NCBI RefSeq assembly: GCF_003334815.1
Contig: NZ_QOWO01000068.1
Strand: one strand, 5' to 3'
From: Escherichia coli
GTDB lineage: Bacteria; Pseudomonadota; Gammaproteobacteria; Enterobacterales; Enterobacteriaceae
Length of the DNA: 6,595 nucleotides
Shown: positions 3,276-3,306 of the stretch, in pieces
How the letters are laid out: every line of letters begins with the position of its first letter
Position numbering within the stretch: the stretch's first letter is position 1
The notes under the pieces: model-generated
What the model was told of the DNA's origin: nothing
Database searches by the model: none
Seen by the model: the letters and a program-made list of their open reading frames with translations, nothing else
Made by a program: the position numbers and the translations under genes

Positions 3276-3306
3276 TCGTGGAAACGATAGGCCTATGCCA
3301 TGCGGG

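What the first reader, a model, noticed from the sequence alone, without database searches (positions are those of the whole stretch)
3276..3306. Perfect 10-bp palindrome in the 31-bp gap between convergent tetA and pecM
ATAGGCCTAT (3287-3296) is a perfect palindrome with no loop, centred between the two convergent stop codons. No strong GC-rich stem-loop with a U-tract is visible, so transcription termination of the two convergent genes is not obviously encoded. The palindrome could be a protein-binding site or simply chance.
Basis: seen in the sequence. Interest (0 to 1): 0.15.

Follow-up and report, generated by a model that had tools for sequence, protein, structure and literature searches.

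The report
Chance palindrome between tetA and pecM
The 10-base palindrome is really there, in the short gap after the tetracycline-resistance gene of transposon Tn1721, but every test indicates an ordinary chance sequence with no structure, no second copy and no need for it in related resistance modules.

Summary
ATAGGCCTAT lies at 3287-3296, centred in the 31-bp gap (3276-3306) between the convergent stop codons of tet(A) and the EamA-family gene pecM. The window is the Tn1721 tetR-tetA-pecM-truncated tnpA module, base-identical in thousands of plasmids and present in 1582 of 5426 complete E. coli genomes.

Nothing marks the palindrome as functional:
- Perfect palindromes of 10 bp or more are rarer in the window (4) than in shuffles (10.6).
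- The palindrome does not fold (0 kcal/mol). The gap and its flanks fold no better than shuffles on either strand.
- No terminator-like site, Rfam family or second copy of the motif exists.
- It does not resemble the tet operators in the same window.
- Three other tet(A) contexts break at 3247/3248 or 3276/3277 and so lack the palindrome, yet they are widespread and still annotated as tet(A).
- The only diverged lineage that keeps it (plasmid N3 type, 5.1% divergent) is too close to show constraint.
- pecM relatives elsewhere lack it.

Termination is probably Rho-dependent or by read-through, which is an inference.

Verdict: a chance palindrome (a StuI site) in a well-known module, of very low interest.

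The parts
3287..3296 (.). Perfect 10-bp palindrome ATAGGCCTAT. It contains a StuI site (AGGCCT) and a TAG at 3288-3290 that is in frame with tetA.
   Evidence: It does not fold on its own (0 kcal/mol).
3276..3306 (.). 31-bp spacer between the convergent stop codons of tetA and pecM. It has no terminator-like element.
   Evidence: It is identical in all Tn1721-type copies examined.
2076..3275 (+). tet(A), the class A tetracycline efflux MFS transporter (399 aa). The mechanical ORF starts at an upstream ATG at 2001. The stop is TGA at 3273-3275.
   Evidence: NCBIfam tet_MFS_A scores 892.6 bits against a cut-off of 840. Annotation.
3307..4191 (-). pecM, an EamA/DMT-family transporter gene (294 aa), convergent with tetA.
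   Evidence: Pfam EamA; WP_000058717.1.
3275..3288 (+). Weak 5-bp hairpin ATCGT-GGAA-ACGAT. It overlaps the last base of the tetA stop and the first two bases of the palindrome. No U-tract follows it.
   Evidence: It is the centroid structure (-4.6 kcal/mol as RNA). The whole-region z-scores are not significant.

Best explanation
ATAGGCCTAT is a fortuitous short palindrome (a StuI site) in the 31-bp spacer left between tetA and pecM in the Tn1721 tet module. It has no function of its own.

It is invariant across thousands of plasmids because the whole module spread recently as one unit, not because the palindrome is selected.

Neither convergent gene has an intrinsic terminator. By inference, tetA and pecM transcripts run into each other's antisense strand. 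They would then be ended by Rho acting on untranslated RNA, by polymerase collision, or simply by RNA decay.
For: Shown:
- Palindromes of 10 bp or more are not enriched: 4 observed against 10.6 +/- 3.2 in shuffles.
- The palindrome alone has a folding energy of 0 kcal/mol. Regions 3260-3320 and 3230-3350 fold no better than shuffles on either strand (z +0.3 to +1.0).
- There is no terminator-like site within several hundred bases of the gap on either strand and no Rfam match at E <= 1.
- No other copy of the motif exists in the window with up to 2 mismatches. It does not resemble the tetO half-sites TTATCA/TGATAA at 1975-2030.
- tet(A) occurs without the palindrome in several contexts. The IncC-floR and Shigella sonnei small-plasmid type breaks at 3247/3248 (alternative C-terminus). 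An E. coli B19 plasmid breaks at 3276/3277, directly after the stop.
- Among Tn1721-type copies the junction is invariant: 1721 of 1724 E. coli records are >= 99% identical and all fetched loci are 100% identical. That gives no information about constraint.
- The N3/pSH102 lineage differs at 105 of 2072 aligned bases (5.1%). It has 1 change in the gap (3282 A>G) and 0 in the palindrome. At 5% divergence, P(0 changes in 10 nt) is about 0.6.
- pecM relatives of 76-83% aa identity in Hyphomicrobiales are not convergent with a tetA, and none has the motif.

Inferred: the mode of termination. GC skew shows only modest C>G stretches on the read-through RNAs.
Against: - The palindrome is almost exactly centred between the two stop codons, and only about 0.035 such palindromes are expected in a 31-bp gap. 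Both figures are post hoc.
- It is retained in the one diverged lineage that still has the spacer.
- No experiment here measured protein binding or transcript ends.
Confidence: 0.86

Rival explanations
1. The palindrome is the binding site of a dimeric protein. This could be a regulator, or a roadblock that stops both convergent RNA polymerases.
For: It has perfect dyad symmetry and a central position in the gap. It is unchanged in the N3 lineage.
Against: - It is only 10 bp with no spacer, so the half-site centres are 5 bp apart. Helix-turn-helix dimers typically need about 10 bp (general knowledge).
- It does not resemble tetO, and tetR(A) is the only intact regulator gene annotated within the window (the first 43 bases are the end of a merR gene).
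- There is no second copy anywhere in the window.
- tet(A) modules without it are widespread.
Confidence: 0.04
2. The spacer is a weak, unconventional bidirectional terminator. It would consist of the small hairpin at 3275-3288 plus the palindrome.
For: A 5-bp stem with a GGAA loop is the centroid structure on the + strand. The N3-lineage change at 3282 lies in the loop, not the stem.
Against: - The hairpin is only about -4.6 kcal/mol and no U-tract follows on either strand.
- z-scores are -0.09 to +0.33 for RNA.
- The terminator scan and a relaxed hairpin scan find nothing here, whereas tetR has a textbook terminator at 1213-1235.
Confidence: 0.04
3. The palindrome is a scar or target of the recombination event that joined the tetR-tetA cassette to pecM.
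For: - Nucleotide homology with pecM relatives ends near 3346, and the last 12 or so codons of pecM are unrelated to theirs.
- The N3 lineage shares only up to 3323.
- The tetA 3' flank is a frequent breakpoint zone: 3247/8, 3276/7, 3322/3 and about 3385.
Against: None of the four observed breakpoints lies in or next to the palindrome. Both tet(A) lineages are collinear straight through it. C-terminal tails of membrane proteins diverge quickly without any recombination.
Confidence: 0.05

Closest known systems
Tn1721 tet module (tetR(A)-tet(A)-pecM-truncated tnpA)
   Same: The whole 6595-bp window is 100% identical to many plasmid records. The annotated genes are tetR(A), tet(A), an EamA family transporter and an isochorismatase-family fragment. 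The 606-aa ORF at 4656-6476 matches positions 384-954 of the Tn3-family transposase profile. The literature uses the names Tn1721 and pecM for this arrangement (papers listed).
   Different: Nothing differs. This is the known module. No feature is annotated in the 31-bp gap in the records examined.
Intrinsic (Rho-independent) bidirectional terminators between convergent genes
   Same: The position: a short spacer between two convergent stop codons containing dyad symmetry.
   Different: There is no GC-rich stem with a loop and no U/A tracts. The palindrome itself cannot fold, and folding energies equal those of shuffles.
tet operators tetO1/tetO2 (TetR binding sites)
   Same: They are palindromic DNA in the same module.
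   Different: tetO consists of TTATCA-N-TGATAA-type half-sites within a roughly 19-bp operator in the tetR/tetA promoter region (1975-2030). The palindrome is 10 bp, has a different sequence with the ATAG/CTAT elements in the opposite order, and lies at the gene 3' ends.
StuI (AGGCCT) restriction site
   Same: The central six bases are AGGCCT (read directly from the sequence).
   Different: A restriction site is a property of the sequence, not a function encoded by the module. No restriction-modification gene is in the window.

Membership tests
Intrinsic (Rho-independent) terminator | G+C-rich stem of at least 5 pairs with a 3-8 nt loop | tested here: not met
   The scan of both strands finds 11 sites in the window and none between 2730 and 6168. 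A relaxed hairpin scan found no hairpin followed by a T-tract within about 600 nt downstream of either stop; the one weak candidate with 5 T in a mixed 10-nt tail scores -12.8 kcal/mol. The palindrome has no loop and folds at 0 kcal/mol.
Intrinsic (Rho-independent) terminator | A run of U directly after the stem | tested here: not met
   The gap sequence TCGTGGAAACGATAGGCCTATGCCATGCGGG has no run of two or more T on the + strand. The longest T run on the - strand is 3 (TTT).
Operator of a dimeric helix-turn-helix regulator (for example tetO) | Two half-sites about one helical turn apart, located at a promoter, and resembling the cognate operator | tested here: not met
   The palindrome is 10 bp with no spacer. 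It does not resemble the tetO half-sites at 1975-2030. It lies at gene 3' ends, and the promoter scan finds sites only at 1973-2025.
Operator of a dimeric helix-turn-helix regulator (for example tetO) | Actual protein binding | not testable with these tools
   This needs EMSA, footprinting or ChIP.
Dispersed intergenic repeat (REP/BIME-like) or structured RNA family | Several copies, or a match to a curated family | tested here: not met
   There is a single copy even with 2 mismatches allowed. Rfam gives 0 matches at E <= 1 over the whole window.
Conserved functional element of tet(A) modules | Retained in related modules beyond what divergence alone would give | tested here: not met
   It is absent from the IncC-floR / S. 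sonnei type and from the E. coli B19 type. It is retained in the N3 lineage, but at 5.1% divergence the chance of no change in 10 nt is about 0.6. It is absent from pecM relatives.
Tn1721 tet module (context) | tetR(A) divergent from tet(A), with a convergent pecM and then a truncated Tn3-family tnpA | tested here: met

The most novel reading that the evidence does not exclude
The terminator-less 31-bp spacer makes tetA and pecM a convergent-transcription interference pair. Tetracycline-induced tetA transcription would run antisense through pecM and lower its expression, and the reverse would also apply. The centred palindrome would act as a pause or roadblock site for a host protein that sets where the two polymerases stop.
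Probability: 0.03. Interest if true: 0.3.

Novelty: not a real feature. Interest (0 to 1): 0.04.

Why it matters
It matters very little. If the palindrome were functional, it would add a regulatory element to one of the most widespread tetracycline-resistance modules, present in 29% of complete E. coli genomes. The evidence points to chance. The only mildly useful point is that tet(A) and pecM have no intrinsic terminator between them, so antisense read-through is likely. That could be checked in existing transcriptome data.

Tried and rejected
- RNA and DNA folding of the gap, and of 61- and 121-nt windows on both strands, gave nothing better than shuffles.
- The consensus terminator scan and my own relaxed hairpin-plus-T-tail scan, run 600 nt downstream of each stop, gave no candidate.
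- Rfam at E <= 1 over the whole window gave no match.
- A search for further copies of the motif found none. The local repeat search found only short chance-level repeats.
- I looked for diverged tetA-pecM junctions in three ways: tblastn of PecM against plasmids, a protein search and six context look-ups. Proteins at 93-95% identity turned out to be the same DNA, 100% identical across the gap. Proteins at 76-83% identity are in unrelated contexts without a convergent tetA. So no informative deeper comparison exists apart from the N3 lineage.
- A search with the sequence downstream of the N3-type tetA was uninformative. Only about 109 records cover most of it, and the rest match only its last 60-75 bases.
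- Two literature searches found no paper in the held library on termination between tetA and pecM. One search failed on syntax.
- I considered the in-frame TAG at 3288-3290 as a backup stop for tetA. I rejected it as significant: the chance of an in-frame stop within five codons is about 20%, and the TAG on the other strand is not in the pecM frame.

Full report
**Observation**

- The tetA reading frame ends with TGA at 3273-3275.
- A 294-codon ORF on the minus strand ends with its stop at 3307-3309.
- The gap between them is 3276-3306, 31 bp: TCGTGGAAACGATAGGCCTATGCCATGCGGG.
- ATAGGCCTAT occupies 3287-3296. It is a perfect palindrome and is centred half a base from the middle of the gap.
- It does not extend, because G3286 faces G3297.
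- It contains the StuI site AGGCCT.

**Identity of the region**

- NCBIfam places the 399-aa product of 2076-3272 in Tet(A), at 892.6 bits against a cut-off of 840.
- The convergent gene is an EamA/DMT-family transporter, the gene called pecM in the Tn1721 literature.
- The 606-aa ORF at 4656-6476 is the C-terminal 60% of a Tn3-family transposase.
- The entire window is 100% identical to many plasmid records. The 111-bp junction occurs in 1582 of 5426 complete E. coli genomes, and 1721 of 1724 records are at least 99% identical.
- This is therefore the well-known Tn1721 tet module. No feature is annotated in the gap in the records examined.

**Is the palindrome more than chance?**

- The window has four perfect palindromes of 10 bp or more. 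Dinucleotide-preserving shuffles give 10.6 +/- 3.2, so such palindromes are under-represented rather than enriched.
- About 0.035 are expected to fall inside one given 31-bp gap. That number is post hoc for a reader who inspected the whole window.
- No other copy of the motif exists with up to two mismatches, against 0.92 expected.

**Structure**

- The palindrome alone does not fold (0 kcal/mol).
- Windows of 31, 61 and 121 nt fold as RNA no better than shuffles on either strand, with z from -0.09 to +1.0. As DNA the 31- and 61-nt windows give z -1.2 and -0.49.
- The only recurrent element is a weak 5-bp hairpin, ATCGT-GGAA-ACGAT, at 3275-3288. No U-tract follows it.
- The consensus terminator scan finds 11 sites in the window, none between 2730 and 6168.
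- A relaxed scan covering 600 nt downstream of each stop finds no hairpin with a T-rich tail.
- Rfam gives nothing at E <= 1.
- By contrast, tetR has a textbook terminator at 1213-1235 on the minus strand.

**Binding site?**

- The tet operators in the same window have TTATCA/TGATAA half-sites at about 1975-2030 and do not resemble the palindrome.
- A 10-bp palindrome without a spacer puts the half-site centres 5 bp apart. That is short for helix-turn-helix dimers (general knowledge).
- The motif is at gene 3' ends, is unique in the window, and no regulator gene other than tetR is present.

**Comparison with related modules**

All Tn1721-type copies fetched are identical across the gap, so they carry no information about constraint. 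Informative variants are these:

| Variant | Where homology to the window ends | Palindrome |
|---|---|---|
| IncC sul2-strAB-tetA-floR type and the 8.4-kb Shigella sonnei plasmids | 3247/3248, giving TetA a different 9-residue C-terminus | Absent; the spacer and pecM are absent too |
| E. coli B19 plasmid | 3276/3277, one base after the stop, followed by a GNAT gene | Absent |
| IncQ1 plasmid | About 3385 | Kept; most of pecM is lost |
| Plasmid N3 / pSH102 lineage | 3323 | Kept |

- The N3 lineage differs at 105 of 2072 aligned positions (5.1%) between 1243 and 3323. It has one change in the gap (3282 A>G) and none in the palindrome. At that divergence, ten bases stay unchanged about 60% of the time, so this is not evidence of constraint.
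- About a quarter of the plasmid matches do not cover most of the 801-bp query (3123 of 4230 do). The listed examples stop at query position 348, and both examined are annotated as tet(A).
- tet(A) is therefore maintained without the palindrome.

**The pecM side**

- The nearest non-Tn1721 relatives of PecM are 76-83% identical. The named ones are mostly from Hyphomicrobiales: Mesorhizobium, Brucella pseudintermedia and Pseudochelatococcus.
- In the contexts examined they follow a nitroreductase gene, or lie near a tetR-MFS pair in a different arrangement. None is convergent with a tetA.
- Nucleotide similarity to the window stops near 3346. None carries the palindrome.
- The last 12 or so codons of the Tn1721 pecM therefore have no counterpart in its relatives. 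That could mean the 3' end was remodelled when the module was assembled. Equally, it could be ordinary divergence of a cytoplasmic tail.
- None of the observed breakpoints coincides with the palindrome.

**Mechanism**

The best-supported reading is that the palindrome has no function. It is a chance sequence carried along with a recently and massively disseminated module.

How the two convergent transcripts end is not encoded by an intrinsic terminator. By inference they read into each other's antisense strand and are ended by Rho, by collision or by decay. GC skew shows only modest C-rich, G-poor stretches on the read-through RNAs: + strand 3360-3480, and - strand about 3240-3360 and 2960-3120. 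This step is inference, not shown.

**Novelty and score**

The module is known, and the palindrome is not a demonstrable feature. Interest is very low. The most novel reading not excluded is a convergent-transcription interference pair with the palindrome acting as a roadblock site. It has no positive support, and I put it at about 3%.

Noticed in passing
window 1213-1235 (- strand): A strong canonical terminator (GCCCGTAGCAGCCCGCTACGGGC followed by TTTTT) lies about 85 nt downstream of the tetR stop. It sits inside an annotated 80-aa 'transposase' ORF (1046-1288, +). tetR thus has a textbook terminator while tetA has none. The alignment with the N3 lineage begins at 1243, just outside this terminator.
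   Followed up: no
window 3247/3248, 3276/3277, 3322/3323, about 3385: The tetA 3' end and flank hold four different breakpoints in other tet(A) contexts: IncC-floR and S. sonnei small plasmids, the E. coli B19 GNAT context, the N3/pSH102 lineage, and an IncQ1 plasmid. The first of these changes the last 9 residues of TetA (SGAGQRADR to RNSSNSRCT).
   Followed up: partly
window 3307-3346 (pecM 3' end); L009-L011: The nearest PecM relatives (76-83% aa; the named ones are mostly Hyphomicrobiales) are 300 aa and in two contexts follow an overlapping nitroreductase gene. Similarity to the Tn1721 pecM stops about 12 codons before its stop, so the 3' end of pecM may have been remodelled when the module was assembled.
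   Followed up: partly
window 4656-6476 (+): A 606-aa ORF matches positions 384-954 of the 954-position Tn3-family transposase profile (859.6 bits). It is the truncated tnpA of Tn1721. It is not listed in the PLSDB gene table for an identical record.
   Followed up: yes
window 3288-3290: The TAG inside the palindrome is in frame with tetA, four codons after its TGA stop (TGA TCG TGG AAA CGA TAG), so it is a possible backup stop. The TAG on the other strand is not in the pecM frame.
   Followed up: partly
L007 1-3903 and L008 (E. coli contigs): A 76%-identical PecM homologue lies about 1.8 kb from a tetR-MFS pair, but on the tetR side and not convergent with the pump gene. DUF736 and DUF3363 genes are next to it. 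This is a second, independent association of a PecM-like gene with a TetR-regulated MFS pump.
   Followed up: no
window 1-43 and 121-137: The window begins with the last 43 bases of a merR gene (Hg-responsive regulator). A 7-bp GC-rich hairpin at 121-137 is scored as terminator-like on both strands.
   Followed up: no
whole window: Perfect palindromes are depleted relative to dinucleotide shuffles: 4 against 10.6 for 10 bp or more, and 23 against 38.3 for 8 bp or more.
   Followed up: no
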